Under the pieces are notes generated by a model. The model searched no databases. It was not told where the DNA came from and saw only the letters and a list, made by a program, of their open reading frames with translations. Shown in pieces: positions 42,515 through 63,790 of a DNA stretch of 64,000 bases (positions are counted from its first letter, which is position 1; every line of letters starts with the position of its first letter). The translations under genes were made by a program, and so were the position numbers. The stretch covers positions 12,091 through 76,090 of the forward strand of contig CAWDZR010000024.1 of assembly GCA_963806755.1 (NCBI GenBank). Direction: 5' to 3'. The stretch comes from an uncultured Gemmatimonadales bacterium. Its GTDB lineage: Bacteria > Gemmatimonadota > Gemmatimonadetes > Gemmatimonadales > JACORV01.

Positions 42515-42568
42515 ACGATAGGCACCCGGCGTGAATGCCGCGTGAACCACCTTGCGGGCCCGTGAACG
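42515..42568 (-). promoter_or_regulatory. SARP-like direct-repeat promoter (site A)
   Basis: Minus-strand TTCACG x3 (spacing 20, 11), then 9 nt, then TATCGT. Confidence 0.7.
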
Positions 42569-42605
42569 GGGCGTACCTTAGCTCGAAACGACGCTGGGCG
42601 GCGCC

Positions 42606-44879
42606 ATGGATGGCCTAGCTTTCCACCTCTTCGGCCCCCCCGAAGTGGCGCTCCCGCGCGGAGAACCCGCGCGCAGCCTTGCTTCGCCCAAGTGCCTCGC
42701 GCTGCTCGCCTACCTCGCCCTCGAACCCGGTCCCCACACTCGAGAGGAACTCGCGGCACTCCTCTGGGGCGAGTTTCCCGACAAGGCCGCTCGGGCTTCG
42801 CTCCGGCAGGCGTTGAAGCGGATCCGCGGCGCCGTCGGCGACCAGTTCCGGGTCGGACGGAACGCGGTCGAGCTCGCGCCTCGATTCTCGTGTGACGTGA
42901 CGGACTTCCTGGAGGCCGCGCGCCGCGATCCGGCCGACGCGGCCCGCTTCGACGTCACGCACTTCCTGAGCGGGCTCGCCCCGCGGAAGGCCGTGGCCTT
43001 CGAGGAGTGGGCTTCGGCACGCCGGCAGCACCTGACACGCGTGTACGAGCAGGTCGCGGCAGAGCTGGCGCGGCGGGCGATGGGGGCCTCGCGCTGGTCC
43101 GAGGCGGCCAAGTGGGCCGACGCGTGGCTCGAGTGCGAGCCGATGTCGGAGGACGGCACGCGGCTCGCCATGGAAGCCTGGTACCTCGCGGGCGATCGCG
43201 GCGCCGCGCTGGCGCGGTTTGCGAGCTACCGCGACCGGCTCTCCGCGAACCTCGGCGCCCGGCCCGGCGCGGCGCTGCTGCAGCTGCAGCGCCGCATCGA
43301 TGGGGACGGCGCGGCACGCCACGCCCAGTCGCGCGCGCCGGGCCGGACGCCCGAGCCGGCGGCGCCCTCCTTCGCGTGCAGCCTCATCGGCCGCGAGCAG
43401 GCCTGGCGCGCGCTCACGCGCGCGTGGGCGGCGCTCGCCCCGGGCCGGGGCGGCTTCGTCCTGATCGAGGGGGAGGCGGGCGTGGGGAAGACCCGGCTCG
43501 CCGAGGAATTCCTGCGCTACGCCGCGACGGAGGGCGGCACGGTGCTCCGGGGCCGCGGCTACGACGCCCGGAGCGGGATCCCGTTCGGGCCGGTGGTGGA
43601 GCTGCTGCGGGGCGCGCTCGACGCGCCGGGTGTGGCGACGGCCGAGACCTCGTGGCTGAGCGAGGTGGCGCGCCTCGTGCCCGAGGTGCGGCGCGCCTTC
43701 CCCGCCGTGCCGGAGCCGGGCGCGCCCGCGCGCGCCACCGAGCGGTGGCGGCTCTTCGAGGGCGTCGCGCAGGTCCTGCTCGCCGTGGCGGACGAGCGGC
43801 CGACGGCCGTCTTCGTGGACGATCTCCAGTGGTGCGACGCCGACACCTGCGCCCTGCTCCACTTCCTGGTGCGCCGGCTCGAGGCGAGCCCGGCGCTCGT
43901 CGTCGCCGCCCTGGCGGTGGACGAGCTGGAGCGCGATGCCCCGGCCGCCCGCCTGTGCCGTGCGCTTCGCGCGAGGGCCCGCGCCACCGTCGTGGCGCTG
44001 CCGGCGCTCACGGAGGAGCAGGTCTGGCAGATGATCCGCGAGATGGGGCACCTCAAGAGCGCGGCGGCGGCCCGGCGCTTCGCCGGCCGGGTGTTCGGCG
44101 TGACCGACGGCAATCCGTTCCACATCGTGGAGCTGCTCAAGACGCTGTTCGCGCAGAGCCTCCTGGCGGTGGACGACGCCCGCGGCGAGTGGACCGCGGC
44201 GCACGCCGAGCCCTACGGCATGCACGAGTTCCCGCTGCCGGCGACCGTCCAGGCCGCCATCGCCGAGCGGGTGGCGCGGCTGCCGTACGTGCTCCGCGAC
44301 CTGCTCGCGGTGGTCGCCGTCGCGAGCGCGGGGTGCCGGGTGGAGATCCTGTCCGCCGTGCTCGGCATGTCGCGCCTCAGGGCGGCCGCGCTGGCCGACG
44401 AGCTGGCGGAGCGCCATCTCCTGGTCGCCGAAGGGCCGCTGTATCGCTGCGCCCACCCGATGATCGCCGCCGTCGTCCGGAGCGACCTCACCGCCTCGCG
44501 CGAGCTGGAACTGCACCGCGCGCTCGCCCTCGCGCTGGCGGACGCGGCCGAGGGGCGCGACGCGCGCGCAACGGCCGGCGAGGTGGCGCGGCACGCCGAC
44601 CGCGGCGACGAGCCGGCCATGGCCTACCGCCACGCGCTGCTCGCGGCCGAGGGCGCGGCGGCACGCTTCGCCTTCGAGGAGGCGCTGAGCTGGCTCGACC
44701 TCGCGGCGGCACGGAGCGGCAGCGACGAGGAAACGCAGGAGGTCAACCGCCGCACGGCCGACGTGTTGCGCCTGGCCGGATGGACGGAGCCGCCGCGCCC
44801 CGTGCCGCGGCCGGGGACGCCGGCCCGCGGCTTCGCCCAGAGTGACCTCGACCTGCAGGCGGAGGAAGTGCCGCGCTGA
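42606..44879 (+). CDS. SARP/BTAD transcriptional activator with AAA ATPase
   Basis: KCLALLAYLAL, REELAALLW, ASLRQAL, GEAGVGKT, VDDLQWCD, TDGNPF and AHPMI motifs. Confidence 0.88.
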   Translation: MDGLAFHLFGPPEVALPRGEPARSLASPKCLALLAYLALEPGPHTREELAALLWGEFPDKAARASLRQALKRIRGAVGDQFRVGRNAVELAPRFSCDVTDFLEAARRDPADAARFDVTHFLSGLAPRKAVAFEEWASARRQHLTRVYEQVAAELARRAMGASRWSEAAKWADAWLECEPMSEDGTRLAMEAWYLAGDRGAALARFASYRDRLSANLGARPGAALLQLQRRIDGDGAARHAQSRAPGRTPEPAAPSFACSLIGREQAWRALTRAWAALAPGRGGFVLIEGEAGVGKTRLAEEFLRYAATEGGTVLRGRGYDARSGIPFGPVVELLRGALDAPGVATAETSWLSEVARLVPEVRRAFPAVPEPGAPARATERWRLFEGVAQVLLAVADERPTAVFVDDLQWCDADTCALLHFLVRRLEASPALVVAALAVDELERDAPAARLCRALRARARATVVALPALTEEQVWQMIREMGHLKSAAAARRFAGRVFGVTDGNPFHIVELLKTLFAQSLLAVDDARGEWTAAHAEPYGMHEFPLPATVQAAIAERVARLPYVLRDLLAVVAVASAGCRVEILSAVLGMSRLRAAALADELAERHLLVAEGPLYRCAHPMIAAVVRSDLTASRELELHRALALALADAAEGRDARATAGEVARHADRGDEPAMAYRHALLAAEGAAARFAFEEALSWLDLAAARSGSDEETQEVNRRTADVLRLAGWTEPPRPVPRPGTPARGFAQSDLDLQAEEVPR

Positions 44880-44912
44880 CGGCAGCCCCGGCCGGCGCGC
44901 CGAGCGCGCCCG

Positions 44913-46157
44913 TCAGCCGATGGTGCGGGTGGCCGCGAGCAGCGTCACGTCGTCGTGCGGCTCGGCCGGCCCGGTGAACACGCGCAGCGCCTCGAGGACC
45001 CCCCGGACGAGCGTGGAGGCGGAGGCGTGGTTCGCCCGAAGGGCGTTGCGGAGGCGCTCGGCGCCGAACGCCTCGCCGGCCGGGCTCAGCGCCTCCACCA
45101 GCCCGTCGGTGAACGCGACGAGACCGTGGCCGGGCTCGACCGTCACCTGGCCCGCGCCGTACACCACGTCCGGCATGAGGCCGAGCGCGGGGCCCGTCGG
45201 TCGCAGCTCCCGGGTGGTGCCGTCCGGCGCGATGACGATGGCCGGCTCGTGACCGGCGTTGACGAAGTCGAGCTGCCCGTCCCTGGGGTCCAGCGCTCCC
45301 AGGAACACCGTGGCGAACATGTTGGTGCGCCCGTGCAGCCTGGCGATGTAGTCGTTGGTGAAGCCCGCGACGCGGGTCAGCAGGTCGGCCGGCGTCGCGG
45401 CTTCCAGCGACTGGCGCACGATGGTCCGGCGGCCGCCGATCATCTGGATGGCGCCGCCCCCGATGGGATCGGCGGAGGCGCGGATGAGGCTGCGGAACAG
45501 GGCCATGAACAGCGCCGCACCGACCCCCTTGTCGCACACGTCGCCGACGACCATGACGATCGTGCCGGAAGGCGGCAGCAGGAAGGCGTCGTAGAAATCG
45601 CCGGAGACCTGGCGGGCGGGTTGCAGCGCCGCTTCGAGCTGCACGCCCCTGGCCACCGGGAGCGAGTCCGGCAGGAAGTCGCGCTGGATGTTCCGGGCGA
45701 CCGCCATCTCGCGCGAGAGGCTCTCGGCGTCGCGCAGGCGCCTGCGGTCCAGCGCGGCGCCGAGGCGCGCCCGCAGCATGGACGGCCGGAACGCCGCCGG
45801 GAGATAGTCGTCGGCGCCCGACTCCAGGCATCGCTCGACGGTCTCGAGGTCGTCCACCGCCGCCACCACGATGACCGGGATCCGCTCCAGCTCGGCGTCG
45901 CTCCGGAGCGCCTCCAGGAACCGCGGGCCGTCCATCCCGGGCGTCCGCGCGTCCAGCAACACCAGGTCGAATGCCTCCGCCCGGAGCTTCCGGAGGGCCT
46001 CGCCGGCCTCTCCAGCCGTGTCCACGCCGTGCCCTTCCCGCTGCACGTGACCGCTGAGCGCCTCGCGACCGGCGGCGGCAGGCTCGACGACCAGCACGCG
46101 CGCCGGCACGGCGTCGGGCGCCGGCGCGGTCGTTCCCGGGTGCGGTGGGGTGGTCAT
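44913..46157 (-). CDS. Receiver + SpoIIE/PP2C phosphatase
   Basis: LVLLD..PGMDG receiver; VSGDFYD, GDVCDKG, NAGH, FTDGL and DDVT. Confidence 0.9.
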   Translation of the reverse strand: MTTPPHPGTTAPAPDAVPARVLVVEPAAAGREALSGHVQREGHGVDTAGEAGEALRKLRAEAFDLVLLDARTPGMDGPRFLEALRSDAELERIPVIVVAAVDDLETVERCLESGADDYLPAAFRPSMLRARLGAALDRRRLRDAESLSREMAVARNIQRDFLPDSLPVARGVQLEAALQPARQVSGDFYDAFLLPPSGTIVMVVGDVCDKGVGAALFMALFRSLIRASADPIGGGAIQMIGGRRTIVRQSLEAATPADLLTRVAGFTNDYIARLHGRTNMFATVFLGALDPRDGQLDFVNAGHEPAIVIAPDGTTRELRPTGPALGLMPDVVYGAGQVTVEPGHGLVAFTDGLVEALSPAGEAFGAERLRNALRANHASASTLVRGVLEALRVFTGPAEPHDDVTLLAATRTIG

Positions 46158-46167
46158 CGGGCGCTGC

Positions 46168-47175
46168 TCACCCTCCGTTGAGCACGTTGAGCTGCCAGAG
46201 GTCCCGCGTGCCGGTGTGCAGGAACGGACTGATGGCGAGCGCCCCCGTCTTCCCGATGCTCTGCTCCAGGTAGCGCAGCTCCTCGAGCTGGTCCTTCAGC
46301 TTCGGTTCCGGCACGGCGTCGAACCCGGCCTCGCGCATCATCAGGATCCCCTTGGCGCGGATGGCGAGCTCGGCGCGCAGGCGCAGGAGGCACATCATGT
46401 CCACGATCACCTCCGCGGAGAAGCGGCGTCGCAGGGTCTTGAGGTACTGCCCGACCGGCGTCCCCGAGACCTGCCCCGAACGGAGGAGCCGCAACAGCTC
46501 CTGGTCGGTGTCGAACCCCGACCCCAGCCAGGCCTTTGTGTCCCGCTCGCTCTGCTGGAACACGGCGACGGTGAGGTACGGAAAGACCAGGACGATCAGC
46601 GCCGTCGCCAGCAGCGGCTGCACCAGGAAGTGATTGTACAGCGAGTGCAGGACCACGGCCACGCCGAGCCCGGGGAGGACGAGGGGGAGCCGGAAGGCGT
46701 CGGAGCGGTTGAGCGTCTTCGCGACCATCGCCACGATGGACGTGGCGCCGCCGTGCATGATCGCGGTGCCGAGCCCCCGCACGATCCAGAGCCAGAACGT
46801 CGCGTCCGGATTCGCCTGCAGGTAGTAGAGGTTCTCGAGGAACGCGAAGCCCGTGCCGATGCCGAAGCCGTGGATGGCCGCGTCCACGACGAACCCCACC
46901 TTGTTCCGCTGCAGCAGCCAGACGACGAAGGCGGCCTTGAGCGATTCCTCCACGACGGGGGCGACGTACCGGGAGTACCGATCCCAGTCCAGGCCGAGAG
47001 CCGGCCGCAGCCAGACGTTGGCCGCGTACGCGGCGAGGCCGGCGACCACGCCGGCGGCGACCGACAGCAGGATCGCCCGCAGCGCGACGAGCTTGTAGCT
47101 GTCGATGAGCAGCAGCGCCCCGAGGAACACGAAGACCGGCAGGATGCTGACGGCGACCGCGAGGACGGTCGTCAC
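46168..47175 (-). CDS. prsW: PrsW family intramembrane glutamic protease
   Basis: EESLK, GFAFLEN, IMHG and LHSLYN motifs; multiple TM helices. Confidence 0.85.
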   Translation of the reverse strand: MTTVLAVAVSILPVFVFLGALLLIDSYKLVALRAILLSVAAGVVAGLAAYAANVWLRPALGLDWDRYSRYVAPVVEESLKAAFVVWLLQRNKVGFVVDAAIHGFGIGTGFAFLENLYYLQANPDATFWLWIVRGLGTAIMHGGATSIVAMVAKTLNRSDAFRLPLVLPGLGVAVVLHSLYNHFLVQPLLATALIVLVFPYLTVAVFQQSERDTKAWLGSGFDTDQELLRLLRSGQVSGTPVGQYLKTLRRRFSAEVIVDMMCLLRLRAELAIRAKGILMMREAGFDAVPEPKLKDQLEELRYLEQSIGKTGALAISPFLHTGTRDLWQLNVLNGG

Positions 47176-50165
47176 ATGATCTTGAACGAGAACATCCAGG
47201 CGGAGTGGCGCGGGCCGCCTTGCTCCCGGACCACGGCGAACCCGGTCGACAACGTGGACTCGAGATGGGAGAGCGTGATCAGGCGGACGTCGAGCTGCGC
47301 GCCCACGCTCAGCAGGGTGCGGCGGGTAGCCGGGTCGTCAACGTTGACCGAGAGCCCCGTCCCGAACAGCGACAGGTCGGCCCATTGCAGGTAGAAGCTC
47401 GGGGTGCCGACGCGGCGGAACCGGAGCGGTGGCGTCACCCATTGCACCTGGGCCCTGCCGTAGTTGGCGCCGCCGACGCTGTCGATGTCGATGCCCGGGA
47501 AGCTCCCGATGTTCCCGAACTGCTGGATGTCGCGGTAGTCCACCCAGTTGTTGCCGAAACCGCCAAAGAAGAAGTTGGCGAACGGGTCGGTCCGGGCGCC
47601 CGCCAGTGCCGCTCCCGCGGCGGCGCGGAACCACAGCGACGAATGGTCGAGCGGCAGCAGGAACCCCCGGGACGCGTCCAGACTCACGCGGGGATACAGC
47701 CTCCCGTTCACCGCGTTGCCCTGAACGCCCGCGCCCCAGGTCGAGCCCAGCTCGTCGTCCACGGCTCCGAGGGAGCGACGGAGGGAGGTGTACGCGAGGT
47801 CGCCGGAGAACGAGAGGAGCGTGCGGAAGGGAGCCGCGATGCCCTGGTACTCCGGCAGGGTCGCCAGGCCGCCGTAGCCCGCCGCCGTGAGCGTGTACGT
47901 CAGCTTCCTCGGCTCGTCATAGAGGAGGTTGCCCTGGTACTGCAGCCCCAGGGAATACCCCTTGCGGCTCACCCTCGTGGGCCCGAAGAGGTCGTAGAAG
48001 TCGGCCGGGTTGAGCGCCGCCGACACCTGCCAGTTCCAGTAGTGGAAGTTCGCGCGCAGGTGGAGGCGCTCGGCGGACGCCAGGCGCCGGTCGGGAGAGT
48101 AGCTCCCGGTCAGGTCGAGGGCGGTGGTGCCGATCCGGTCGGACACGTTCACGCGCATGCCGACGGCCACGGCATCGGTGCCGGCCGCATCCTGGTAGCC
48201 CTCGAGGACCGGGTACGCACTGTCCAGCTTGAGGTTGCCCAGCGGCCGGTAGGGTCCCTGCGAGATCGTGACCGAGTCGAGGTCGACCCGCGACGCGGGC
48301 GGCACCGCCCACGACCGCACGTCGGGACGCTTGTCGGCGATCTCGCTCCCCAGGAAGCGAATCGCGCTCACGCTGTCCACGGCCCGGTTCGCGATCAGCG
48401 AGGGGACGAATCCCCAGCGCGTGTACGCGAAGACGAGGACGGAATCCCTGGAGACGGGCACCGGCCTGAAGAAGCCGGTCTCCGCGTTGCTCAGCGCGTC
48501 GATGTCCTTCGCGTCGAGGTCATAGCGGAAGATGTTCGAGACACCCGAGAGGTACGAGGAGCCGTACAGGTACCTGCCGTCCGGCGAGAACACGAAGTTC
48601 TGCGGCGCCGCGTCGCCGAAGTCGTACAGGGTCTGGGATGTCGTGTCCCCTTGCACCAGGGCCGGGATGTCCATCCTCACCAGCCGCTGGCTTCCGCTGA
48701 TCTCCGACATCGAGCCGACGAGGGTCGCGCCGTCCGGCGAGACGTCCAGGTCGAACAGGTCCCGCCCGTACGGCAGGGTGCGGACCTGATGCCACTCGTG
48801 ATACGGCGGCGGAATGCGGACCAGGGTCGAGAACCCGTTGTCGTGCCGGACGCCCCACAGCGAGCTGTCCGCGGGGTCGAAGGCGAGATCCCCGACCCGC
48901 GCGTCCCTCATCAGGGTCTCGTACCGGCCGGACGCCAGATTCAACGACACGAGGTTCCGCCAGTTGGCGTTGTTGGTCGTGTAGAAGAGCGTGCGGGACG
49001 CCGGATCGTACGCCAGCGAGGTGACGTAGAGCCCCGCGGCCCCCAGCACCTCCCTGATGTTCGTGAGCTTGCCGGTCGCGACGTTGATGGCGGCGATGTG
49101 GCCGACCTGGCCCGGATAGCGGAGGGCCAGGTAGAGGTTCCCGCTCGCCGAGTCGTAGTACGCCCGGGAGACGGCGCCCAGCGCCCGGTTCGAGACCGGG
49201 CGGGCCGTGGTAACCGGGTGCCGCCGGATGGCCGCGAGGTTGGAATCCTGCCAGTCGCGCTCCCACGCGATCCAGCGCGACCACTCGTCCTCGAGCGACC
49301 GGCCGTACACGTGCTGGAACTGCGCCGAGAAGTAACGCCGGCTGCCCGCGGTCCGGTTGAACCACGAGAGCAGACTGTCGTCGCCGTAGCGCAGCGCCAG
49401 GTAGCTGACGAACCGGGTGCCGTAGAGATAGGAGTTGGCCCCGACCAGGTAGTCGACCGTCGTCCCTTCCGCCTCCAGCCCGACGACGTCGTAGATCCGG
49501 GCGCTGTCGCGGACGAGGGTGCGGAACACCATCTCGTCGTAGGGGCCGATCACTCGCCCCACGCCCCCGTTCATCCACGTCTCGAGATAGACGGCGATCC
49601 CCTCCAGATACCATCGCGGCGAGTACCACCGCGGCACGGTGAGGTAGCCGTACAGCATGGACGGCGGGGCGGCCGGGTTGGGCGTGACCTTGCCGAAGAA
49701 GACGGATCGGAAGAACCGGTCCGACGCGGTGGCCTTGTCGGTCGTCACGAGGTGGACCATCTCGTGGTTGAACGAGGAGATGATCCGCTCCTGCGCGGGC
49801 GCCGACTCGTACTCCACTTCGTACGGCGCGATCCCCACGGTGATGTGGTTCTCCGGCAGCGGGCTCGCTCCCGCGTTGCCGTAGTGCCACAGGTCGTGGA
49901 TCAGCACGTCGATCTTGCCCCCGGGCGACCAGTCCCAGAGGCGCTCGTGGAACTGCAGCGAGTTTTCGAAGGCGCCGACCACCAGAGGCACCAGGTAGGA
50001 CTGGAGCGGCGACGTGTACACGAGCCGCATGTCCCGGGTGTCGACCATCTGGAACTGCGCCAGGAGATCGGAGGGCGCCGCCGCCCCCGCGAAGGCGAGG
50101 AAGGCCAGGACCTCCCAGAGGCGCGCCGTGCGGCGGGGGGTCGTCGCGAATCGGTGCGGATGCAT
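47172..50165 (-). CDS. Outer-membrane protein: gluzincin domain + beta-propeller + beta-barrel
   Basis: Signal peptide; HEMVH and WYLEGIA; SPDG repeats; amphipathic C-terminal strands ending WMFSFKIM. Confidence 0.72.
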   Translation of the reverse strand: MHPHRFATTPRRTARLWEVLAFLAFAGAAAPSDLLAQFQMVDTRDMRLVYTSPLQSYLVPLVVGAFENSLQFHERLWDWSPGGKIDVLIHDLWHYGNAGASPLPENHITVGIAPYEVEYESAPAQERIISSFNHEMVHLVTTDKATASDRFFRSVFFGKVTPNPAAPPSMLYGYLTVPRWYSPRWYLEGIAVYLETWMNGGVGRVIGPYDEMVFRTLVRDSARIYDVVGLEAEGTTVDYLVGANSYLYGTRFVSYLALRYGDDSLLSWFNRTAGSRRYFSAQFQHVYGRSLEDEWSRWIAWERDWQDSNLAAIRRHPVTTARPVSNRALGAVSRAYYDSASGNLYLALRYPGQVGHIAAINVATGKLTNIREVLGAAGLYVTSLAYDPASRTLFYTTNNANWRNLVSLNLASGRYETLMRDARVGDLAFDPADSSLWGVRHDNGFSTLVRIPPPYHEWHQVRTLPYGRDLFDLDVSPDGATLVGSMSEISGSQRLVRMDIPALVQGDTTSQTLYDFGDAAPQNFVFSPDGRYLYGSSYLSGVSNIFRYDLDAKDIDALSNAETGFFRPVPVSRDSVLVFAYTRWGFVPSLIANRAVDSVSAIRFLGSEIADKRPDVRSWAVPPASRVDLDSVTISQGPYRPLGNLKLDSAYPVLEGYQDAAGTDAVAVGMRVNVSDRIGTTALDLTGSYSPDRRLASAERLHLRANFHYWNWQVSAALNPADFYDLFGPTRVSRKGYSLGLQYQGNLLYDEPRKLTYTLTAAGYGGLATLPEYQGIAAPFRTLLSFSGDLAYTSLRRSLGAVDDELGSTWGAGVQGNAVNGRLYPRVSLDASRGFLLPLDHSSLWFRAAAGAALAGARTDPFANFFFGGFGNNWVDYRDIQQFGNIGSFPGIDIDSVGGANYGRAQVQWVTPPLRFRRVGTPSFYLQWADLSLFGTGLSVNVDDPATRRTLLSVGAQLDVRLITLSHLESTLSTGFAVVREQGGPRHSAWMFSFKIM

Positions 50166-50276
50166 GGTCAAGGGGACAAAAGGTAGGCGGTGATCCGGGT
50201 TCGCGTTAGGGCGAGCCTGGACCACCGCCTGGGAACCGCCCCGGGCTGAAGGGGCGCTGCGGAAAACTGCCTCAGG

Positions 50277-51398
50277 TCAGTTCTGCGTGCGCATCGCCGC
50301 CTGCATGAACGCCTCAGCCAGCGCCTGACTCTGCGCCAGGGAGCGGAACGCTTCGTTCTGCTGCAGCGTCCGGAACGCCTGGTTGGCCACGATGTCGCGG
50401 AAGGACTGGTTGGCCATCATCTGCGCGTACGCCGAGTTGGCCTGCAGATTCCGGAACGCCTGGTTGGCCATCAGCGACTGGTAGGCCGTGTTGGCCATCA
50501 GCGACTGGTAGGCCGTGTTGGCAATCAGCTGCTGGTAGACCTGGCTGGCCATCACCTGCTGGTAGGCCGAGTTGGCCTGCAGATTCCGGAATGCCTGGTT
50601 GGCCACCAGCTGCTGGTAGGCCTGGTTGGCCGCCGCTTTCTGATAGGACTGGCTCGCCATCAGCTGCTGATAGGCCGAGTTGGCCTGCATGTCCCGGAAC
50701 GCCTGGTTGGCGATCAGCTGCTGGTAGACCGCGCTGGCCATCAGTTGCTGGTAGGACTGGCTCGCGATCAGCTGCTGGTAGGCCTGGTTGGCAACGATCG
50801 TCCGGTAGGCGTCGCTGGCCGCGAGTGTGCGGAACGACTGGTTGTTCATGGCCTGCCGGAACGCGTCGCTCCGGACCAGCTGCAGGACCTGGTCGTTCTG
50901 GAACAGGGCCTGGATCTCGGGGTTCTTGAGCGTCACGTCGGCCTGGGTCATGGCCCGGCCATGATACCGCGCCGCCGCCTCCACCCCGCCGATCGTGCCG
51001 GATCCGCCGCTCAGGGGCGGCCAGCCGGTGACGATCCCGGCGACGACAAGCACGACCGCCACCGCCGCGGTTCCGATGAGCACAGCCTTCCTGTTCATGA
51101 TCGTCTCCCCCATGTGTTCGGCAACCTGTCTCAGTGCCCCGACGGCCCATCGTCCGATGGACGGCGGTGACGCGCCCACCGGCTGCGGCAGCGCGTCGAG
51201 GATCGTCCGCTTCAGGTGGGGCGGCGGCTGGCGCTCCCCCACCTGCCCGAAGAGCACGGCGACGCGGCGCAACTCGGCCGCGAGCGCCCTGGCCTCCGGA
51301 TCCGTCTCCACCAGCGACCGGAACGCGGCACTCCCCTCCGGAGTGTTCGCGCCATCGATCTCCTGGTGGATCAGCTCGACCTGGTTCTGGCTCAGCAT
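50277..51398 (-). CDS. Anti-sigma factor with TM helix and about 22 nine-residue repeats
   Basis: Directly after the ECF gene; ZAS-like N-domain without Zn ligands (IDG...PPPHLK); ANQAYQQLM-type repeats. Confidence 0.72.
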   Translation of the reverse strand: MLSQNQVELIHQEIDGANTPEGSAAFRSLVETDPEARALAAELRRVAVLFGQVGERQPPPHLKRTILDALPQPVGASPPSIGRWAVGALRQVAEHMGETIMNRKAVLIGTAAVAVVLVVAGIVTGWPPLSGGSGTIGGVEAAARYHGRAMTQADVTLKNPEIQALFQNDQVLQLVRSDAFRQAMNNQSFRTLAASDAYRTIVANQAYQQLIASQSYQQLMASAVYQQLIANQAFRDMQANSAYQQLMASQSYQKAAANQAYQQLVANQAFRNLQANSAYQQVMASQVYQQLIANTAYQSLMANTAYQSLMANQAFRNLQANSAYAQMMANQSFRDIVANQAFRTLQQNEAFRSLAQSQALAEAFMQAAMRTQN

Positions 51399-51400
51399 CG

Positions 51401-51952
51401 CTACCGGACTCCTTCACCGAGCGCCAGCCGCAACCGCTCCCGCGCCGTGAACAGCCGTGACTTGACGGTGCGGACGGGAATCTCCAGCACGTCGGCGATC
51501 TCCTGGTACGAGAAGGACACGAAATGCTTCAGCACCACCACGGCCCGATCGTCGGGCTTCAAGCTCATCAACGCCCTCCCGACCAGGTCCTCCGCCTCCG
51601 CCGCCCCATCGGGTGCGGCGCCCGGCGCCGGGATGTCGAGGTCGTCCTCCAGCGTCACCGTCGGTTTCCGGCGCTTCAGCACGTTCAACGACTCGTTCAC
51701 CGCCATGCGATAGATCCAGCTGAAGAACCGGTACCGCGGGTCGTAGGTCCGGAGCTGGCGAAACACGTTCAGAAACACCGTCTGCGTGACGTCCTCCGCG
51801 TCCTGCACGTCGTGGAGCATCCGGAGCGCGACGTTGAACAGCCGTTGCTGGTAGCGATCGACGAGCTCGCCGGCCGCGTTCCGGTCATTCTCGAGGCACC
51901 GCCTGACGAGAGCGCGGTCCTGTTCGTCAGCCGCCACAGGTGTCTCTATCAA
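51401..51952 (-). CDS. ECF RNA polymerase sigma factor
   Basis: DAEDVTQTVF, FFSWIYRMAVN and SYQEIADVLEIPVRTVKSRL motifs. Confidence 0.93.
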   Translation of the reverse strand: MIETPVAADEQDRALVRRCLENDRNAAGELVDRYQQRLFNVALRMLHDVQDAEDVTQTVFLNVFRQLRTYDPRYRFFSWIYRMAVNESLNVLKRRKPTVTLEDDLDIPAPGAAPDGAAEAEDLVGRALMSLKPDDRAVVVLKHFVSFSYQEIADVLEIPVRTVKSRLFTARERLRLALGEGVR

Positions 51953-52153
51953 TTACAACCCAGCCCGCCAAAGGTTGGAGGAGCCCGTCCGGCGGGCCCC
52001 CGGGGGGAAGAACGTGCATCGTGGGGCGCCCCGCTGCAATGCCGGGCCCGGGGCTCTCCGGCACCGGGTGGCGGCTCCCCGCGCCGTGGCGCGGCGGGCT
52101 GGCGGTTTTTGACCTGTTGAGGTCTCATTCAGCGGCCCGCCCCGGAGGGCGAC

Positions 52154-52960
52154 ATGGGGCCCAGCTTCCGGATGACGATCGGCACCGAACCCGGCCAGGT
52201 CGCCGAGGTGGGCGCGGCGTTCGCCGAGTTCGCGGATGCGCACGCCGTCCCGGCCGCGATCCGGCGCAGCCTGAGCGTCGCCCTCGACGACCTCCTGAAC
52301 AACACCATCGCGTACGGATTCGCGGGGCGGGAGGGCGGCGAGGTGCGCATCGAGGTGGAGGTGCGCGCCGATCGGGTGTGCGCCACGCTCACCGACGACG
52401 GCAGGCCCTTCAACCCGTTGGACGCGGCCGCCCCCGACACCGCACTCTCGGTGGAGGAGCGGCAGGTCGGCGGGCTCGGCATTCACCTCGTCCGGCGGAT
52501 GATGGACGAGGTCGGCTATCAACGCCGGGGCGATCACAACGTCGTCACCCTGGCCAAGCTCCTGACGGGCAGGAGCGCGGCGGGTCGTCGCGGAGGACGG
52601 TCCATGGACATCACCACACGCACGCAGAACGGTGTCACCCTGGTCGCCTTCGCGGGCAAGCTCGACAGCAACACGTCGCCGCAGGCCCAGCAGGCCCTCG
52701 ACGCGATGCTCGCGGGCGGCGCGCGGAAGATGGTCGTGGACTTCACGGCGCTCGACTACATCAGCAGCGCCGGGCTCCGGGTCCTGCTCGGCACGGCCAA
52801 GCGGCTGAGCGCGGCGGGAGCAGGAAGCGCGGCAGGCGGGGGGGGCGGGCTGCGCCTGTTCGGCCTGAACGACACGATCCGGGAGGTGTTCGACATCTCC
52901 GGGTTCTCCACGATTCTCGCCGTGTTCGCCACGGAAGCGGACGCGCTTAAGGGGTTCTAG
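52154..52960 (+). CDS. RsbW-like kinase fused to STAS anti-anti-sigma domain
   Basis: DDLLNNTIAY, DDGRPFNP and GGLGIHLV, then GKLDSNT and LDYISSAGLRVL in one frame. Confidence 0.85.
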   Translation: MGPSFRMTIGTEPGQVAEVGAAFAEFADAHAVPAAIRRSLSVALDDLLNNTIAYGFAGREGGEVRIEVEVRADRVCATLTDDGRPFNPLDAAAPDTALSVEERQVGGLGIHLVRRMMDEVGYQRRGDHNVVTLAKLLTGRSAAGRRGGRSMDITTRTQNGVTLVAFAGKLDSNTSPQAQQALDAMLAGGARKMVVDFTALDYISSAGLRVLLGTAKRLSAAGAGSAAGGGGGLRLFGLNDTIREVFDISGFSTILAVFATEADALKGF

Positions 52961-56373: not shown

Positions 56374-56493
56374 GGCTGCCTCGCAGAGATCAGAGTGTTC
56401 GGGTGGCTGTGAAGGGCGCCTCGGACAAGAGGGCGGCGCCGAGCGGTCGGGTGGGGCGCAGGTGCCCGCGCCCCGCCCGTGCCGCCCCCGCGC

Positions 56494-56805: not shown

Positions 56806-56844
56806 GGTCCCTCCTCCTTGGTAGGCGTGTTCCCCACCCGTTGG

Positions 56845-59682: not shown

Positions 59683-59792
59683 GCCGCGCCTCGCCTTCCG
59701 AGCAGACGCATCCTGCTCTCAGGACTGACGCCGAACGTTAGGAGGTGACCGTTAGCCGACCGTTAGGGCGACACTCAACCATGCCCCCAAAG
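59662..59792. repeat. 131-bp direct repeat, copy 2 (kinase start plus promoter)
   Basis: Matches 53551-53681. Confidence 0.92.
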
Positions 59793-59875
59793 TCGAGTGG
59801 AGCGCGAGTGCACGAGCCCACAACAATCCGACTTGATTCATCGCATTTCCGCTGGCCGACTGGCGTAGCATCGGC

Positions 59876-59914
59876 TTGCCGAACGGCTGCCGGCGCCGTA
59901 TCATGATATCATGA
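59876..59914 (+). promoter_or_regulatory. vapBC promoter and palindromic operator
   Basis: TTGCCG-N17-TATCAT; perfect palindrome TCATGATATCATGA (59901-59914) covering the ATG. Confidence 0.75.
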
Positions 59915-60210
59915 AACGCGCTCATGAAGTGCGGAGCCGCGGCCGGGAGGCCGAGCCGGTCCAGGTCTACCTGGATCCCCCGGACCGCGAGCGGCTGCAG
60001 CGCCTCGCGACGGAGCTCGACGCCACCAAGTCCGACGTGCTCCGGCGCGGCCTCGCGGCCCTCGAGTCGTCCCTCCGCCGGCCGGCCCCGCGCCCCGCGG
60101 CGCCGGGCGCCCTGCCGATCTTCAAGGGCAAGGGCCTGCAGCCCGGCGTGGACCTCGACGACACCGCCAGCCTGCTCGACCTGATGCAGGCGCCCCATGC
60201 GGCTCGCTGA
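59911..60210 (+). CDS. vapB: CopG/RHH antitoxin
   Basis: VQVYL...TKSDVLRRGL RHH; PGVDLDD tail; overlaps the toxin gene. Confidence 0.8.
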   Translation: MKRAHEVRSRGREAEPVQVYLDPPDRERLQRLATELDATKSDVLRRGLAALESSLRRPAPRPAAPGALPIFKGKGLQPGVDLDDTASLLDLMQAPHAAR

Positions 60211-60637
60211 CGTCAACGTTCTCGTCCACGCGTTCCGCGCCGACGCGCCCGGTCACGCGGCGCACCGCGCGTGGGTCGCGTCGCTGGTCGCGTCGGACGA
60301 AGCCTACGCGGTGTCGGACCATGTCCTCGCGGGATTCCTGCGCGTGGTGACGCACCCCAGGGTGTTCCATCCACCCACGCCGATCGCGGCGGCCCTGGCG
60401 TTCGCGCACGCGTTCCGCGACCGGGCCAACGCGGTCCCCGTCGCGCCGGGGGCACGCCACTGGAGCATCTTCACGCGGTTGTGCCGGGACGCCGCCGCCC
60501 GGGGCAACCTGGTGCCGGACGCCTGGCTGGCGGCGCTGGCCATCGAGTCCGGCTGCGAATTCGTCACGACGGATCGCGACTACGCCCGCTTCCCGGGCTT
60601 GCGCTGGCGGCACCCGCTCGACGAAGAGCGGCCGTGA
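60197..60637 (+). CDS. vapC: PIN-domain toxin
   Basis: DVNVLV, GNLVPDAWLAALAIE and TTDRDYARFPGL motifs. Confidence 0.92.
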   Translation: MRLADVNVLVHAFRADAPGHAAHRAWVASLVASDEAYAVSDHVLAGFLRVVTHPRVFHPPTPIAAALAFAHAFRDRANAVPVAPGARHWSIFTRLCRDAAARGNLVPDAWLAALAIESGCEFVTTDRDYARFPGLRWRHPLDEERP

Positions 60638-60716
60638 GCGCGCGCGTGCGCCTACCCGCGTCCGCCGCCATCGTCGCGAGGCAAGGGACGCCTTCCATGT
60701 GTCCGAAAGGTTCGCC

Positions 60717-61946: not shown

Positions 61947-61978
61947 GCCGGCGGCGGCGGCGCCTGGTCGCACCCGCG

Positions 61979-62032
61979 ATTCACACCCGGACTCGGGGCA
62001 TTCACGGCACATTCACGCGCGCCACCTAGGCT
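61979..62032 (+). promoter_or_regulatory. SARP-like direct-repeat promoter (site B)
   Basis: ATTCAC at 61979, 62000 and 62011, then 9 nt, then TAGGCT at 62027. Confidence 0.7.
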
Positions 62033-62073
62033 GGGGCGGAATTCCAACGCCCCAGCTTCGGTGGAGGACTGCC

Positions 62074-62706
62074 ATGCGCGCGCCGTTCCTGCTCACCGCG
62101 ATCGCCGCCCCGCTCCTGGCGGTACAGGTCATCACCTTCCCGAGTGCCCGCGCCCAGGCCGGAGGTCCGTGGCGGGAGGGGCACGTCCGCCGCTGTTCCC
62201 GCGCCGACACGCTCTTCGGTCGGCTGTGGCGCTCGCACGGATCACTGGTCCGCGTGAGCTATTCGTCCCAACACGACTCGACCACCATCAAGTCGCGCTT
62301 CCGCAACTACTCGTGGGAGCCCGGCGCCAGCCGTCTCGTCGCGACGGAATCCGAGGTCGAGCTCCCCGGCCAGATGCGCCCGGCCGATTCCGCGCGGATC
62401 ACGCTGCACCTCAGCTTCGTGGATTCCATCTACCGGTCGCCGGAACAGGCGCACCTCCAGCTCCAGCTCGGCGATTCCGCGCGCATGGACTTCGACGCGC
62501 CGCAGGTGGACTACCCGATGGACATCAAGACCTCGGGAACCCCGCTCGTCGTCACCGTCCTGCTGACGCCCGAGCAGAGCCTGGCGCTGGCACGCGTGCC
62601 GGGGGACGTCAAGGGAACCATGGGTCCCTTCCCCTTCATCCTCTACAGCTTCGAGCTGTGGGAGGCGAACGCGGTCTACCGCGCGAGCGTCTGCGGCCTG
62701 GAGTAG
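62074..62706 (+). CDS. Hypothetical secreted protein
   Basis: GGAGG RBS; signal ARA-Q; Cys pair. Confidence 0.75.
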   Translation: MRAPFLLTAIAAPLLAVQVITFPSARAQAGGPWREGHVRRCSRADTLFGRLWRSHGSLVRVSYSSQHDSTTIKSRFRNYSWEPGASRLVATESEVELPGQMRPADSARITLHLSFVDSIYRSPEQAHLQLQLGDSARMDFDAPQVDYPMDIKTSGTPLVVTVLLTPEQSLALARVPGDVKGTMGPFPFILYSFELWEANAVYRASVCGLE

Positions 62707-62764
62707 CGGAAAGCGAATCGAGGAGTCCACCTGCCGCCGAGCACGGCCTCGGGGAGGCCAGCCG

Positions 62765-63667
62765 CTACGCGAGATCCTTGCACTCCGCCAGCGCGGCCCG
62801 CATCTCCGCGGCCGTCTGCCACCGGTCCGACGGGTTCTTGGCGAGCGCCTTCTTGATCAGGTTCGCGAGCTTGGGCGGCACGTGGGGGCGCAGCTTGCGC
62901 ACGTCGGGGACCGCGGCGCGCAGATGCATCCCGAACACCACCCGGTCGTCGGTGTGCTCGAACGGCGGCGAGCCGGTGAGGCACTCGTAGATCACGCACC
63001 CGAGCGAATAGAGGTCGCTGCGCGGGTCGATGTTCTTCTCTCCCGCCACCTGCTCCGGGCTCATGTACAGCGAGGTGCCCAGCGTGAAGCCGGAGCGGGT
63101 CAGCCGCGACCGGCTCAGCGCCGAGGCCGTCACGGCCTTCGCGATCCCGAAGTCCATCAGGATCGCGCCGCTCGGCGAGATCTTGATGTTCTCGGGCTTC
63201 ACGTCGCGGTGCACCACGCCCAGGCCGTGGGCGTACTCCAGGGCGTCGAGCACCTCGCACGTCCCGCGCAGCGTGTCCTCCACCGAGACGCGGCGAGCGC
63301 GATCCAGCGTTTCCCGCAGGGTCGGGCCCTCGATGTACGTCATCACGTAGTACACCAGCCACTCCCGCTCCCCGTAGTCGAGGAGGCGGCAGATGCGCGG
63401 GTGGTCGAGATGCGTGAGGAGGCTGATCTCGTTCAGGAATCGCTCGGCGGTCAGGCTGACCACCAGCTCCGGGCGCAGGACCTTGAGCGCCACCGCGGTC
63501 CCCGCGCGGTCCCGCGCCAGGAAGATCCGCGACGCGCCGCCCACCGCGATCTCCCGCTCCACGGTGTAGCGGTCGCCCAGGGCGGCCTGCACCAGAGGAC
63601 GCAGGTCACGATGTGAGCCCGCCGGCGGCGCCCAGCTTCCAGGGTCCATCACGGGTCCCGCGCTCAA
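62765..63667 (-). CDS. Ser/Thr protein kinase (kinase domain only)
   Basis: VALKV, HRDVKPEN, DFG, YMSPEQ and SDLYSLG; start uncertain. Confidence 0.92.
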   Translation of the reverse strand: MSAGPVMDPGSWAPPAGSHRDLRPLVQAALGDRYTVEREIAVGGASRIFLARDRAGTAVALKVLRPELVVSLTAERFLNEISLLTHLDHPRICRLLDYGEREWLVYYVMTYIEGPTLRETLDRARRVSVEDTLRGTCEVLDALEYAHGLGVVHRDVKPENIKISPSGAILMDFGIAKAVTASALSRSRLTRSGFTLGTSLYMSPEQVAGEKNIDPRSDLYSLGCVIYECLTGSPPFEHTDDRVVFGMHLRAAVPDVRKLRPHVPPKLANLIKKALAKNPSDRWQTAAEMRAALAECKDLA

Positions 63668-63735
63668 GGTGCCTGGTCCTCACGGCCCCGGCCGCGGGCC
63701 GGCCACACGGGCCTGCCGCGCCGGGAACGTGATCC

Positions 63736-63790
63736 AGGCTACAAACTAAGCGTGAACGGGGCGTGAACGCGACCTCCCCGCGCGTGAACG
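63736..63790 (-). promoter_or_regulatory. SARP-like direct-repeat promoter (site C)
   Basis: CGTGAACG at 63751, 63762 and 63783 on the plus strand; 9 nt to minus-strand TAGCCT. Confidence 0.72.

What the first reader, a model, noticed from the sequence alone, without database searches (positions are those of the whole stretch)
42515..63790. Dispersed regulon with a shared SARP-like promoter: TTCACG x3, 9 nt, TAnnnT
Seen: three unlinked intergenic regions have the same geometry in the orientation of the downstream gene. Site A (42515-42568) precedes the 51-aa peptide, site B (61979-62032) a secreted protein and site C (63736-63790) a Ser/Thr kinase. Each has three RTTCAC(G) repeats spaced 20-21 then 11 bp, followed by exactly 9 nt and a -10 hexamer (TATCGT, TAGGCT, TAGCCT), with no -35. 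Known: Streptomyces SARP activators (ActII-ORF4, AfsR, DnrI) bind direct repeats on an 11-bp helical phase just upstream of the -10. Inference: the BTAD-AAA protein at 42606, divergent from site A, activates a peptide + kinase + secreted-protein regulon. This parallels the AfsR/AfsS/AfsK circuit in a non-actinobacterial genome.
Basis: partly seen in the sequence, partly recalled or inferred. Interest (0 to 1): 0.82.

Follow-up and report, generated by a model that had tools for sequence, protein, structure and literature searches.

The report
SARP-type promoter boxes in Gemmatimonadales
A soil-type bacterium outside the actinomycetes carries a small set of promoters built like those switched on by Streptomyces antibiotic regulators, next to the likely regulator gene, and the same arrangement recurs across its phylum in front of a family of unknown 50-residue proteins.

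Summary
Three sites read RTTCACR-N13/14-RTTCACG-N4-RTTCACG-N9-TANNNT, each pointing at the downstream gene. None of 100 shuffles gave a match, and these are the only full matches in the 3.25-Mb genome. A fourth site lies on another contig, before an outer-membrane efflux gene.

The element is conserved. I found 88 distinct sites in 60 of 68 related loci, almost all titled Gemmatimonadota. They keep TTCACG twice at 11 bp, then exactly 9 nt, then a -10-like hexamer (A2 84/88, T6 85/88).

A homologue of the regulator at 42606-44879 lies in 53 of those 68 loci. Its N-terminus folds like AfsR and EmbR. The motif tracks this orthologue: 12 of 12 genomes with it against 1 of 29 without, and 27 of 31 against 25 of 270 in a phylum sample.

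The geometry equals the afsS promoter of AfsR. The best reading is a SARP-LAL-type activator with a small regulon: 50-aa peptides, secreted proteins and lipoproteins, and in this genus one Ser/Thr kinase. Binding, activation and start sites are untested. "Dispersed" is overstated, because the three sites lie within 21 kb. This is a new member of a known kind.

The parts
42306..42461 (-). Gene for a 51-aa peptide (MAEPKDPVRIKLTAEQKETIRKATGK...ELTVEELEERIA...). It is the target of site A and a member of a Gemmatimonadota-wide family of about 50-aa proteins.
   Evidence: Translation. GGAGG lies upstream of the ATG. Orthologues lie beside the regulator in 9 of 11 relatives. 79 distinct family members were found in the 68 loci. 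The AF2 model is beta-alpha-beta-alpha with pLDDT 78.8.
42515..42520 (-). Site A -10-like hexamer TATCGT, 9 nt after the proximal repeat.
   Evidence: In 88 aligned sites from other genomes the hexamer at this fixed offset has A2 in 84/88, T5 in 67/88 and T6 in 85/88.
42530..42547 (-). Site A middle repeat (GTTCACG 42541-42547) and proximal repeat (ATTCACG 42530-42536), 11 bp apart. The middle repeat sits where a -35 would be, but 20 nt from the hexamer.
   Evidence: The 11-bp spacing is nearly exclusive in related loci: 68 of 108 close pairs are at 11 bp, 29 at 21-23 bp and 8 at 32-33 bp.
42561..42567 (-). Site A distal repeat GTTCACG, 20 bp upstream of the middle repeat. On the other strand it lies inside the spacer of the regulator gene's own promoter.
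42552..42579 (+). Probable promoter of the regulator gene: TTGCGG (42552-42557), 16 nt, TACCTT (42574-42579). The distal repeat lies inside the spacer, which suggests autoregulation.
   Evidence: TTGCNN-N16-TANNNT, mostly TTGCCS-N16-TASSTT, was found at the same place in 39 of 52 regulator-adjacent loci. That it is a promoter and that it is autoregulated are inferences.
42606..44879 (+). Regulator, 757 aa: an N-terminal SARP domain (OmpR-type winged helix plus BTAD) and an AAA_16 STAND ATPase (Walker A GEAGVGKT, Walker B VFVDDLQW), with no LuxR helix-turn-helix.
61979..62032 (+). Site B: ATTCACA 61979-61985, ATTCACG 62000-62006, ATTCACG 62011-62017, then 9 nt, then TAGGCT 62027-62032.
   Evidence: The same three-repeat site lies upstream of the orthologous gene in G008.
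62074..62706 (+). Target of site B: a 210-aa protein with an N-terminal signal-like hydrophobic stretch and no Pfam or NCBIfam family.
   Evidence: It has a 60%-identical orthologue in G008 with the same box.
62765..63649 (-). Target of site C: a 294-aa Ser/Thr protein kinase consisting of the kinase domain only.
   Evidence: Pfam Pkinase 4.1e-46. Orthologues of 75-84% identity in G004, G008 and G010 each carry the box, while about 40 paralogous hits in the own genome are at most 49% identical.
63736..63789 (-). Site C: GTTCACG 63783-63789, 63762-63768 and 63751-63757, then 9 nt, then TAGCCT 63736-63741.

Best explanation
These are activator-dependent sigma-70-type promoters. Each has a -10-like hexamer and no usable -35. 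In place of the -35 there are two heptamer repeats (RTTCACG) on an 11-bp phase, ending 9 nt before the hexamer, with a third repeat one or two helical turns further upstream.

The most likely binder is the divergently encoded 757-aa protein at 42606-44879. It is a SARP-LAL-type regulator: an OmpR-type winged helix, a BTAD domain and an AAA_16 STAND ATPase.

By analogy with AfsR at afsS, protomers would bind side by side, one per repeat, on one face of the DNA. They would cover the -35 region and recruit RNA polymerase through sigma region 4, the beta flap and alpha-CTD. The ATPase domain, and perhaps Ser/Thr phosphorylation, would set activity.

The regulon is small, at 1-6 boxes per genome. 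Its core target across the phylum is a family of about 50-aa peptides, often in tandem with one box each. Accessory targets are secreted proteins and lipoproteins, an outer-membrane efflux protein, and in this genus one specific Ser/Thr kinase.

At site A the distal repeat lies in the spacer of the regulator's own TTGCGG-N16-TACCTT promoter. Occupancy there would probably repress the regulator gene.

Shown here: the sequence anatomy, its conservation, the fold of the regulator and the co-occurrence of regulator and motif. Inferred: binding, activation, start sites, autoregulation and any role of phosphorylation.
For: Anatomy and chance:
- 3 matches in the window, 0 in 100 shuffles.
- These are the only 3 full matches in the genome, plus a fourth variant site.

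Conservation, using columns not used to pick the sites:
- 88 distinct sites in 60 of 68 loci.
- G after each TTCAC in 84/88 and 86/88.
- Hexamer A2 84/88, T5 67/88, T6 85/88 at a fixed 9-nt gap.
- NANNTT occurs at gap 9 in 55 of 72 exact sites, at gap 10 in 5, and at gaps 7 and 11 once each.
- Repeat spacings fall on whole helical turns: 11 bp x68, 21-23 bp x29, 32-33 bp x8, other spacings x3.

Regulator:
- BTAD 1.1e-11 and AAA_16 1.5e-27.
- Only AfsR and EmbR are hit in the PDB by sequence profile.
- They are also the best hits by fold, with E 1.6e-10 to 1.1e-08 and TM 0.61-0.68.

Linkage:
- A homologue of 42-62% identity lies in 53 of the 68 peptide loci, nearly always divergent and within about 250 bp.
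- Among 41 related genomes, 12 of 12 with the orthologue carry the box, against 1 of 29 without. The reversed-pattern control gave 0.
- In 301 genomes of the phylum, 27 of 31 with the orthologue carry the box (57 sites), against 25 of 270 without (33 sites). The reversed control gave 2 sites. Without the unpublished genome G086 the counts are 26 of 30 and 55 sites.
- Paralogous BTAD-AAA proteins match in 37 of 41 genomes at E <= 1e-20, so they do not explain the distribution.

Geometry equals known SARP sites:
- The rule is repeats 11 or 22 bp apart, with the 3' repeat about 8 bp from the -10. In afsS the TTCAGC '-35' lies at positions 3-8 of the upstream 11-bp repeat (PMC10936776, introduction and section 7 read).
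- afsS has a 20-bp spacer (PMC11301090, passages read). Here TTCACG is followed by 20 nt and then the hexamer.
- Some SARP sites have three heptamers, and PimR's has 4-nt spacers (PMC10972967, passages read).

No canonical promoter is called at the sites.
Against: - No binding, transcription or start-site data exist. No RNA run holds the stretch.
- Pfam Trans_reg_C was not detected at E <= 0.01. The winged helix is supported only by fold and by alignment to AfsR and EmbR.
- The recognition helix differs from AfsR's. AfsR T88 aligns with an invariant Q68. AfsR R92, which contacts the first T, aligns with a variable position (PMC10936776 section 7). The shared TTCA core may therefore be coincidence.
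- 25 of 270 genomes without a detected orthologue still have a pattern match, and 4 of 31 with it have none.
- At least two matches are inside genes and look like chance: L092, which is the only match counted for G217, and L105.
- Kinase genes next to the regulator in more distant genomes lack the box.
- Related genomes are not independent samples.
Confidence: 0.78

Rival explanations
1. The repeats are PHO-box-like sites bound by an OmpR/PhoB-family response regulator, not by the BTAD protein. In Streptomyces, PhoP binds 11-nt direct-repeat units, and it competes with AfsR at afsS.
For: PhoB-type regulators also bind direct repeats at about 11 bp in place of a -35. PhoP and AfsR are reported to bind overlapping sequences at afsS (PMC6988585, passages read). 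The GTTCACC core of the Streptomyces PHO box was seen only as a search term that hit papers; otherwise it is recalled. PhoB and YycF effector domains appear as weak fold hits for the winged helix (E 0.04-0.06).
Against: The whole genome has only four such sites, and none precedes a phosphate-related gene. The targets are a peptide, a secreted protein, a kinase and an OEP protein. The motif follows the presence of the BTAD orthologue and lies beside it. The only receiver-domain gene next to the regulator here is fused to a PP2C phosphatase, has no DNA-binding domain, and was found in none of the 68 loci. I did not search the genome for phoB or pstS.
Confidence: 0.06
2. The BTAD protein binds the repeats but acts mainly as a repressor or roadblock, and the hexamers are not the -10 of the regulated promoters.
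For: The distal repeat sits inside the spacer of the regulator's own putative promoter, which is a repressing position. No start sites are known.
Against: The hexamer has the two most critical -10 bases (A2, T6) conserved at a fixed distance in 84-85 of 88 sites. There is no -35 at 16-18 nt. The layout is that of experimentally defined SARP-activated promoters (PMC10936776, PMC11301090).
Confidence: 0.08
3. The sites are promoters of an alternative sigma factor, for instance the ECF sigma encoded at 51401-51952. The repeats would be its -35 element, duplicated.
For: An ECF sigma gene with a possible partner lies between sites A and B.
Against: That sigma gene was found in none of the 68 related loci. 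The conserved hexamer is NANNTT, like the housekeeping -10 and like the regulator's own TASSTT. It is not a CGT-type ECF -10 (that consensus is recalled). Two or three phased repeats are not a feature of sigma recognition.
Confidence: 0.03
4. The similarity is chance or a dispersed repeat element with no regulatory role.
For: The genome has 71% G+C, and the bare heptamer is only about twofold enriched.
Against: 0 of 100 shuffles reproduce even one composite match. The reversed-pattern controls gave 0 of 41 genomes and 2 sites in 301 genomes, against 21 and 90 true matches. Sites always lie upstream of a start codon and point towards it. They are conserved between genomes whose regulators are only 42-58% identical.
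Confidence: 0.01

Closest known systems
AfsR and the afsS promoter (afs box) of Streptomyces coelicolor
   Same: An N-terminal SARP domain, which is the best sequence and fold match in the PDB. A large regulator with a STAND-type ATPase behind the SARP domain. The target is a small-protein gene. Two 11-bp direct repeats have a TTCA core at positions 3-6, and the upstream one overlaps a poor -35 (TTCAGC there, TTCACG here). Both have a 20-bp gap to the -10 and 6 nt between the end of the second 11-bp unit and the -10 (PMC10936776, PMC11301090). A Ser/Thr kinase is linked to the system.
   Different: The ATPase is AAA_16, not NB-ARC, and no TPR was detected. Identity to AfsR is about 25%. The recognition-helix contacts are not conserved. 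The peptide matches no Pfam or NCBIfam family and was not compared with AfsS directly. The kinase is not an AfsK orthologue. The organism is a Gemmatimonadales bacterium. Most sites have a third repeat.
SARP-LAL regulators (PimR, SanG, FilR) of Streptomyces
   Same: The domain order is a SARP domain followed by a LAL/guanylate-cyclase-type ATP-binding region without the LuxR helix-turn-helix (PMC10972967 passages; AAA_16 and a TIGR03903 partial match). The PimR site has three heptamers with 4-nt spacers, which is the layout of the fourth site on contig C34.
   Different: The protein is 757 aa, against about 1,000 residues given for large SARPs in the review. It is not inside a biosynthetic gene cluster. 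The PimR site is reported not to overlap the -35 (PMC10972967 passage), whereas here the repeats replace it.
EmbR of Mycobacterium tuberculosis
   Same: The SARP-domain fold (profile E 3e-07 over residues 6-244; TM 0.64-0.65). It is a regulator functionally tied to a Ser/Thr kinase (recalled).
   Different: EmbR carries an FHA domain instead of an ATPase, and it has no comparable defined repeat box (the latter is recalled).
PhoB/PhoP PHO boxes
   Same: Direct repeats on an 11-bp phase replace the -35. In Streptomyces the PHO box and the AfsR box overlap (PMC6988585).
   Different: There is no phosphate regulon here. The motif tracks a BTAD protein, not a two-component regulator.

Membership tests
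SARP family (SARP domain = OmpR-type DNA-binding domain + BTAD) | N-terminal OmpR-type winged helix-turn-helix | tested here: met
   In the AF2 model of residues 1-260 (pLDDT 89.8), the six best Foldseek hits are AfsR and EmbR over 252-270 columns, with E 1.6e-10 to 1.1e-08. The profile aligns to EmbR residues 13-267. phmmer aligns residues 4-231 to AfsR. Caveat: Pfam Trans_reg_C gave no hit at E <= 0.01.
SARP family (SARP domain = OmpR-type DNA-binding domain + BTAD) | Bacterial transcriptional activation domain (BTAD) directly after the DNA-binding domain | tested here: met
   Pfam PF03704, E 1.1e-11, 45.7 bits against a cut-off of 22.1, residues 131-231.
SARP family (SARP domain = OmpR-type DNA-binding domain + BTAD) | Target promoters with heptamer direct repeats 11 or 22 bp apart, the 3' repeat about 8 bp from the -10, overlapping the -35 | tested here: met
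   This holds for the candidate sites: in the window, and in 60 related loci. The rule is taken from PMC10936776 and PMC10972967 (passages). Counted from the last base of the RTTCACG heptamer the gap is 9 nt. In 11-bp units it is 6 nt, as at afsS.
SARP family (SARP domain = OmpR-type DNA-binding domain + BTAD) | The protein binds those repeats and activates transcription | not testable with these tools
   Only adjacency and co-occurrence support it.
SARP family (SARP domain = OmpR-type DNA-binding domain + BTAD) | Actinomycete host; control of a secondary-metabolite gene cluster | tested here: not met
   65 of 68 related loci are titled Gemmatimonadota taxa. Neighbouring genes are signalling and proteolysis genes, not biosynthetic ones. 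This is a habit of the family rather than a structural criterion.
SARP-LAL subclass (PimR/SanG/FilR) | SARP domain followed by a LAL/cyclase-type ATP-binding region, without a LuxR helix-turn-helix | tested here: met
   AAA_16 at 1.5e-27, residues 260-433. A partial match to the ATPase part of TIGR03903, residues 258-696. No GerE/LuxR hit. Walker A and B motifs are visible. The definition is from PMC10972967 (passages). I did not compare the protein with PimR itself.
AfsR orthologue (SARP + NB-ARC + TPR) | Central NB-ARC domain and C-terminal TPR | tested here: not met
   Pfam finds AAA_16, AAA_22 and weak nSTAND3, but no NB-ARC and no TPR. Full-length AfsR chains match only through the BTAD region.
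AfsK/AfsR/AfsS circuit | Target small protein homologous to AfsS | not tested
   No AfsS sequence was available from a tool. The peptide family has no Pfam or NCBIfam family at threshold: sub-threshold DUF1192 in 57 of 80 members, best E 8e-4, and nothing in NCBIfam.
AfsK/AfsR/AfsS circuit | Kinase orthologous to AfsK | tested here: not met
   The NCBIfam AfsK model NF053615 scores 96.8 bits against a cut-off of 1300. The protein is a bare 294-aa kinase domain.

The most novel reading that the evidence does not exclude
Gemmatimonadota have an AfsK/AfsR/AfsS-like circuit that is not homologous in its output. A SARP-LAL STAND regulator is genomically tied to a dedicated Ser/Thr kinase. Through AfsR-type boxes it drives tandem arrays of a previously undescribed family of 50-aa beta-alpha-beta-alpha proteins (signature LTPEQ..ATGK..ELSVEELEERIAP). 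These small proteins would be the real effectors, acting on RNA polymerase or other regulators as AfsS is thought to do. If so, 'SARP plus small-protein effector' would be an ancient, phylum-spanning regulatory design rather than a Streptomyces speciality.
Probability: 0.3. Interest if true: 0.7.

Novelty: new member of a known kind. Interest (0 to 1): 0.55.

Why it matters
SARP activators have been studied almost only in Streptomyces, as switches of antibiotic clusters.

This finding gives a base-precise, conserved and directly testable operator and promoter model for a SARP-type regulator in a poorly studied, mostly uncultured phylum. It comes with a defined small regulon.

It also shows that the afsS-type promoter design occurs outside the actinomycetes. 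That design is repeats replacing the -35, a 20-nt gap, and a weak -10.

It singles out an uncharacterised family of about 50-residue proteins as the main output. It also gives a first view of housekeeping-type promoter elements in Gemmatimonadales: TTGCCS, 16 nt, TASSTT.

My searches of the held paper library found nothing on this system. Supplementary files were not consulted.

Tried and rejected
1. Expression and start sites. The look-up of sequencing runs was unreachable four times. When it answered it listed no RNA holder and only DNA runs with small shares (at most 0.13). Read laying was therefore not used, and nothing can be said about expression.

3. Frame error, corrected. (protein 1) and alignment A2 used 42306-42462, which is one base too long and so out of frame. 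Those three results are void. They were redone with 42306-42461.

4. Peptide function.
- No Pfam family at threshold. Only sub-threshold DUF1192 appears, sharing the LSVEELEERIA-like stretch.
- No NCBIfam family.
- No Foldseek PDB match at E <= 0.001 for the 51-aa model.
- The ESM Atlas returned only unnamed clusters of about 50-aa hypothetical proteins.
- A RiPP-precursor reading was considered and set aside. No modifying enzyme is conserved beside the genes, and the variable tail is only 5-12 residues.

5. Conserved neighbours of the regulator. Of 12 window proteins searched against the 68 loci, only the kinase recurred (14 loci, 8 listed at 51-59% identity). The RR-PP2C, PrsW, ECF sigma, RCC1, ADH and secreted-protein genes did not.

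6. Box upstream of those distant, regulator-adjacent kinases: none found.

7. The strict pattern with TANNNT and R before the second repeat found sites in only 4 of 41 genomes. It was too narrow, because many sites have a C, G or A first base in the hexamer. It was replaced by the looser pattern.

8. The paper PMC3133061 (PhoP/AfsR at afsS) is not held. The exact afs-box and PHO-box letters were therefore not seen.

9. I did not search for phoB/pstS in the genome, did not compare the protein with PimR, and did not run complex prediction.

Full report
WHAT IS THERE

The window is contig C24:12091-76090 of a 3.25-Mb genome with 71% G+C, assembled in 35 contigs and rated 92% complete. Read in the direction of the downstream gene:
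- Site A: GTTCACG-N13-GTTCACG-N4-ATTCACG-N9-TATCGT
- Site B: ATTCACA-N14-ATTCACG-N4-ATTCACG-N9-TAGGCT
- Site C: GTTCACG-N14-GTTCACG-N4-GTTCACG-N9-TAGCCT

A composite pattern finds these three places and nothing else in the window. It finds nothing in any of 100 dinucleotide-preserving shuffles. In the whole genome the three-repeat pattern occurs only here.

Allowing one mismatch in TTCACG-N5-TTCACG gives 14 places. Only four of them have a TANNNT 8-10 nt downstream. The fourth is on contig C34: ATTCACG-N4-GTTCACG-N4-ATTAACG-N9-TAGCGT. It lies 24 nt upstream of the open frame of a lipoprotein of the outer-membrane efflux family (Pfam OEP 1.4e-38).

No canonical sigma-70 promoter is called around any of the three window sites.

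THE GENES
- Site A drives a 51-aa peptide. The correct coordinates are 42306-42461, with GGAGG before the ATG.
- Site B drives a 210-aa protein with a signal-like N-terminus and no known family.
- Site C drives a 294-aa Ser/Thr kinase (Pkinase 4.1e-46).
- Divergent from site A is a 757-aa protein with BTAD (1.1e-11) and AAA_16 (1.5e-27), intact Walker A and B motifs, and no LuxR helix-turn-helix.

The regulator's first 250 residues form a SARP domain:
- phmmer finds only AfsR in the PDB.
- A profile of 12 orthologues finds only AfsR (three entries) and EmbR.
- An AlphaFold model (pLDDT 89.8, pTM 0.81) has AfsR and EmbR as its six best Foldseek matches, with E 1.6e-10 to 1.1e-08 and TM 0.61-0.68 over 252-270 columns. 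The next hit is at E 2e-03.

Pfam's Trans_reg_C model did not fire. The winged helix therefore rests on fold and alignment.

The 17 kb between sites A and B is full of signalling genes:
- a receiver-PP2C phosphatase and a PrsW protease;
- an ECF sigma and an RsbW-like kinase fused to STAS;
- a C70/C39-like peptidase and a 945-aa kinase with TPR;
- a PIN-domain toxin pair and an RCC1-repeat protein.

CONSERVATION

Full-length orthologues of the regulator (51-80% identity) are present in 11 of 40 related genomes. Paralogues at about 30% identity are almost everywhere, matching in 37 of 41 genomes, including four more in this genome. In 9 of those 11 relatives the orthologue is divergent from a peptide orthologue, with TTCAC repeats between the two genes.

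I used an alignment of these peptides to scan one genome per GTDB species. Of these, 65 are titled Gemmatimonadota, Gemmatimonadales, Gemmatimonadaceae or Longimicrobiales, and all are MAGs. The organism is therefore a Gemmatimonadales bacterium, as its relatives' titles indicate.

A homologue of the regulator lies in 53 of the 68 loci, nearly always on the opposite strand just upstream of the peptide gene. Many loci have two or three peptide genes in tandem.

I scanned for TTCAC-N6-TTCAC with at most one mismatch, upstream of an ORF containing the EELE-type signature. This gave 88 distinct sites in 60 of the 68 loci. Columns that were not part of the selection are strongly conserved:
- G after each TTCAC: 84/88 and 86/88.
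- A or T before the first repeat: 81/88.
- At a fixed 9-nt gap, a hexamer with A2 in 84/88, T5 in 67/88 and T6 in 85/88 (consensus cAgaTT).

Among 72 exact sites, NANNTT lies at gap 9 in 55, at gap 10 in 5, and at gaps 7 and 11 once each. Successive TTCACG hexamers lie 11 bp apart 68 times, 21-23 bp 29 times, 32-33 bp 8 times, and at other spacings up to 40 bp only 3 times. These spacings are whole helical turns. The tandem peptide genes each have their own box.

WHO BINDS

The motif tracks the orthologue.

Among the 41 related genomes:
- The pattern TTCAC-N6-TTCACG-N10-ANNNT occurs in 13 genomes (21 sites). The reversed control found none.
- Those 13 are all 12 genomes with the orthologue plus one of the 29 without.

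In an even sample of 301 genomes of the phylum:
- The pattern occurs in 52 genomes (90 sites). The reversed control found 2 sites.
- The orthologue (E <= 1e-120) is in 31 genomes.
- 27 of the 31 carry the pattern (57 sites), against 25 of the other 270 (33 sites).
- One of the 31 (G086) is flagged unpublished. Without it the figures are 26 of 30 and 55 sites.
- One of the 27 (G217) owes its only match to a site inside a gene.

Some matches in genomes without the orthologue are tandem boxes at contig ends, for example in G280. The regulator gene may simply be unassembled there. I did not check this.

These genomes are related, so the counts are not independent trials. Even so, the patchy distribution argues for a unit that is gained and lost together: 5 of 13 species in this genus, and 16 of 18 with the pattern in genus g12.

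Five further genomes reached through the loci carry 1-6 boxes each. In the richest of them, four boxes precede peptides and two precede lipoproteins.

TARGETS IN THIS GENUS
- The kinase is a specific orthologue group. Identity is 75-84% in G004, G008 and G010, against at most 49% for about 40 paralogous hits in this genome. All four species have the box in front of it, with three repeats in G010.
- The secreted protein has one orthologue, in G008 (60% identity), with the three-repeat box.
- In G008 the regulator, secreted-protein and kinase genes lie within about 10 kb in the same order, with the same M90 peptidase gene beyond the kinase. The window's layout is this cluster with 17 kb inserted.
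- In more distant Gemmatimonadales a kinase of the same subgroup (51-59% identity) lies convergent, directly after the regulator gene, in at least 8 of the 68 loci. It has no box there.
- The kinase is thus linked to the regulator more widely than it is regulated by it.

COMPARISON WITH KNOWN SARP PROMOTERS

The AfsR cryo-EM paper states the general rule: direct repeats 11 or 22 bp apart, with the 3' repeat 8 bp from the -10. It describes the afs box as two 11-bp repeats from -40 to -19. The upstream repeat overlaps a poor -35 (TTCAGC, -38 to -33). The -10 is weak (CACTGT), and only the first 8 bp of each repeat are contacted (PMC10936776; introduction and section 7 read). A second structure paper notes the unusual 20-bp gap between the -35 and -10 of afsS (PMC11301090; passages read).

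Laid on that frame, the sites here are the same. TTCACG occupies positions 3-8 of an 11-bp unit. A second unit follows, then 6 nt, then the hexamer. That makes 20 nt between the first TTCACG and the hexamer.

A review lists three-heptamer sites for DnrI, ActII-ORF4, VlmI and FdmR1. It also lists a site of three heptamers with 4-nt spacers for the SARP-LAL regulator PimR. It defines SARP-LALs as a SARP domain plus a LAL/cyclase-type ATPase without the LuxR motif (PMC10972967; passages read). That is the architecture found here.

The DNA-reading residues are not the same as in AfsR. W74, R87 and R94 of AfsR align with the invariant or near-invariant W54, R67 and R74. T88 aligns with an invariant Q68, and R92 with a variable position. 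The shared TTCA core is therefore not explained by shared contacts.

AUTOREGULATION (INFERENCE)

In the direction of the regulator gene, 39 of 52 regulator-adjacent loci show TTGCNN, 16 nt, then TANNNT, mostly TTGCCS and TASSTT. The reverse complement of the distal repeat (CGTGAAT) lies inside the spacer. In the window this is TTGCGG 42552-42557 and TACCTT 42574-42579. A protomer on the distal repeat would sit on the regulator's own promoter.

THE PEPTIDE FAMILY

I collected 79 distinct members from the 68 loci. They share LTPEQ..(I/V)R.ATGK.AEA(L/V)ELSVEELEERIAP followed by a short, variable, often basic tail.

AlphaFold gives a beta-alpha-beta-alpha unit with pLDDT 78.8. It has no significant PDB match. 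There is no Pfam or NCBIfam family at threshold; DUF1192 appears sub-threshold in 57 of 80 members. The ESM Atlas returned only unnamed clusters. The function of the family remains unknown.

VERDICT

The interpretation as a SARP-type activator with its boxes is well supported by anatomy, fold, adjacency, phylogenetic profile and exact agreement with experimentally defined SARP promoters. Binding, activation, start sites and any kinase-regulator phosphorylation remain untested.

It is a new member of a known kind of system, in a phylum where I found nothing in print. Its main output is an undescribed small-protein family.

Noticed in passing
window 11002-12885 (C24:23092-24975); also C35:106767-108863, C17:236278-238296, C21:11464-13356: Four further BTAD/AAA-type paralogues of the regulator (30-33% identity) are in this genome, one of them inside the window. 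No TTCACG boxes were seen beside them in the genome-wide scans, and their targets are unknown.
   Followed up: partly
G000 contig C15, about 19-48000: At least 15 Ser/Thr kinase paralogues (42-49% identical to the window's kinase) lie in an array on one contig, spaced about 2.5-5 kb apart.
   Followed up: no
window 59911-60637: A PIN-domain gene (60197-60637, Pfam 2.4e-14) is overlapped by a 99-aa upstream ORF with no family. The pair looks like a VapBC-type toxin-antitoxin.
   Followed up: no
L100 (G008:C9) about 4100-4320, between the ADH gene and the regulator: In G008 the peptide gene is missing. In its place is a fragment resembling the first 70-90 residues of a Ser/Thr kinase (49% identity to residues 24-94). 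The distal-repeat region is degenerate there.
   Followed up: partly
window 44913-52960: A dense signalling neighbourhood lies next to the regulator: receiver-PP2C (SpoIIE) phosphatase, PrsW protease, a 1017-aa PD40 protein, an ECF sigma with a possible partner, and an RsbW-like kinase fused to a STAS domain. None of these recurred beside the regulator in the 68 other loci.
   Followed up: partly
L018:1028-1150 (-), L089 (second ORF), L043:3789-3929: A shorter variant of the peptide family (about 40 aa, MSK..KKPATE.KPK...EELK(V/I)EELE(D/E)RIAP) lacks the LTPEQ..ATGK half. It follows a full-length member in some genomes.
   Followed up: no
L010 (G010) upstream of the peptide gene: This site has three repeats at 11 + 11 bp and a 10-nt gap to TATGGT. 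The ancestral distal repeat is degenerate (CCCACGG). This shows turnover of repeat number and position between close species.
   Followed up: partly
L020, about 600-720: A heptanucleotide tandem repeat (GCCATCT, 6 full copies) lies upstream of the regulator-adjacent kinase gene in one Gemmatimonadota MAG.
   Followed up: no
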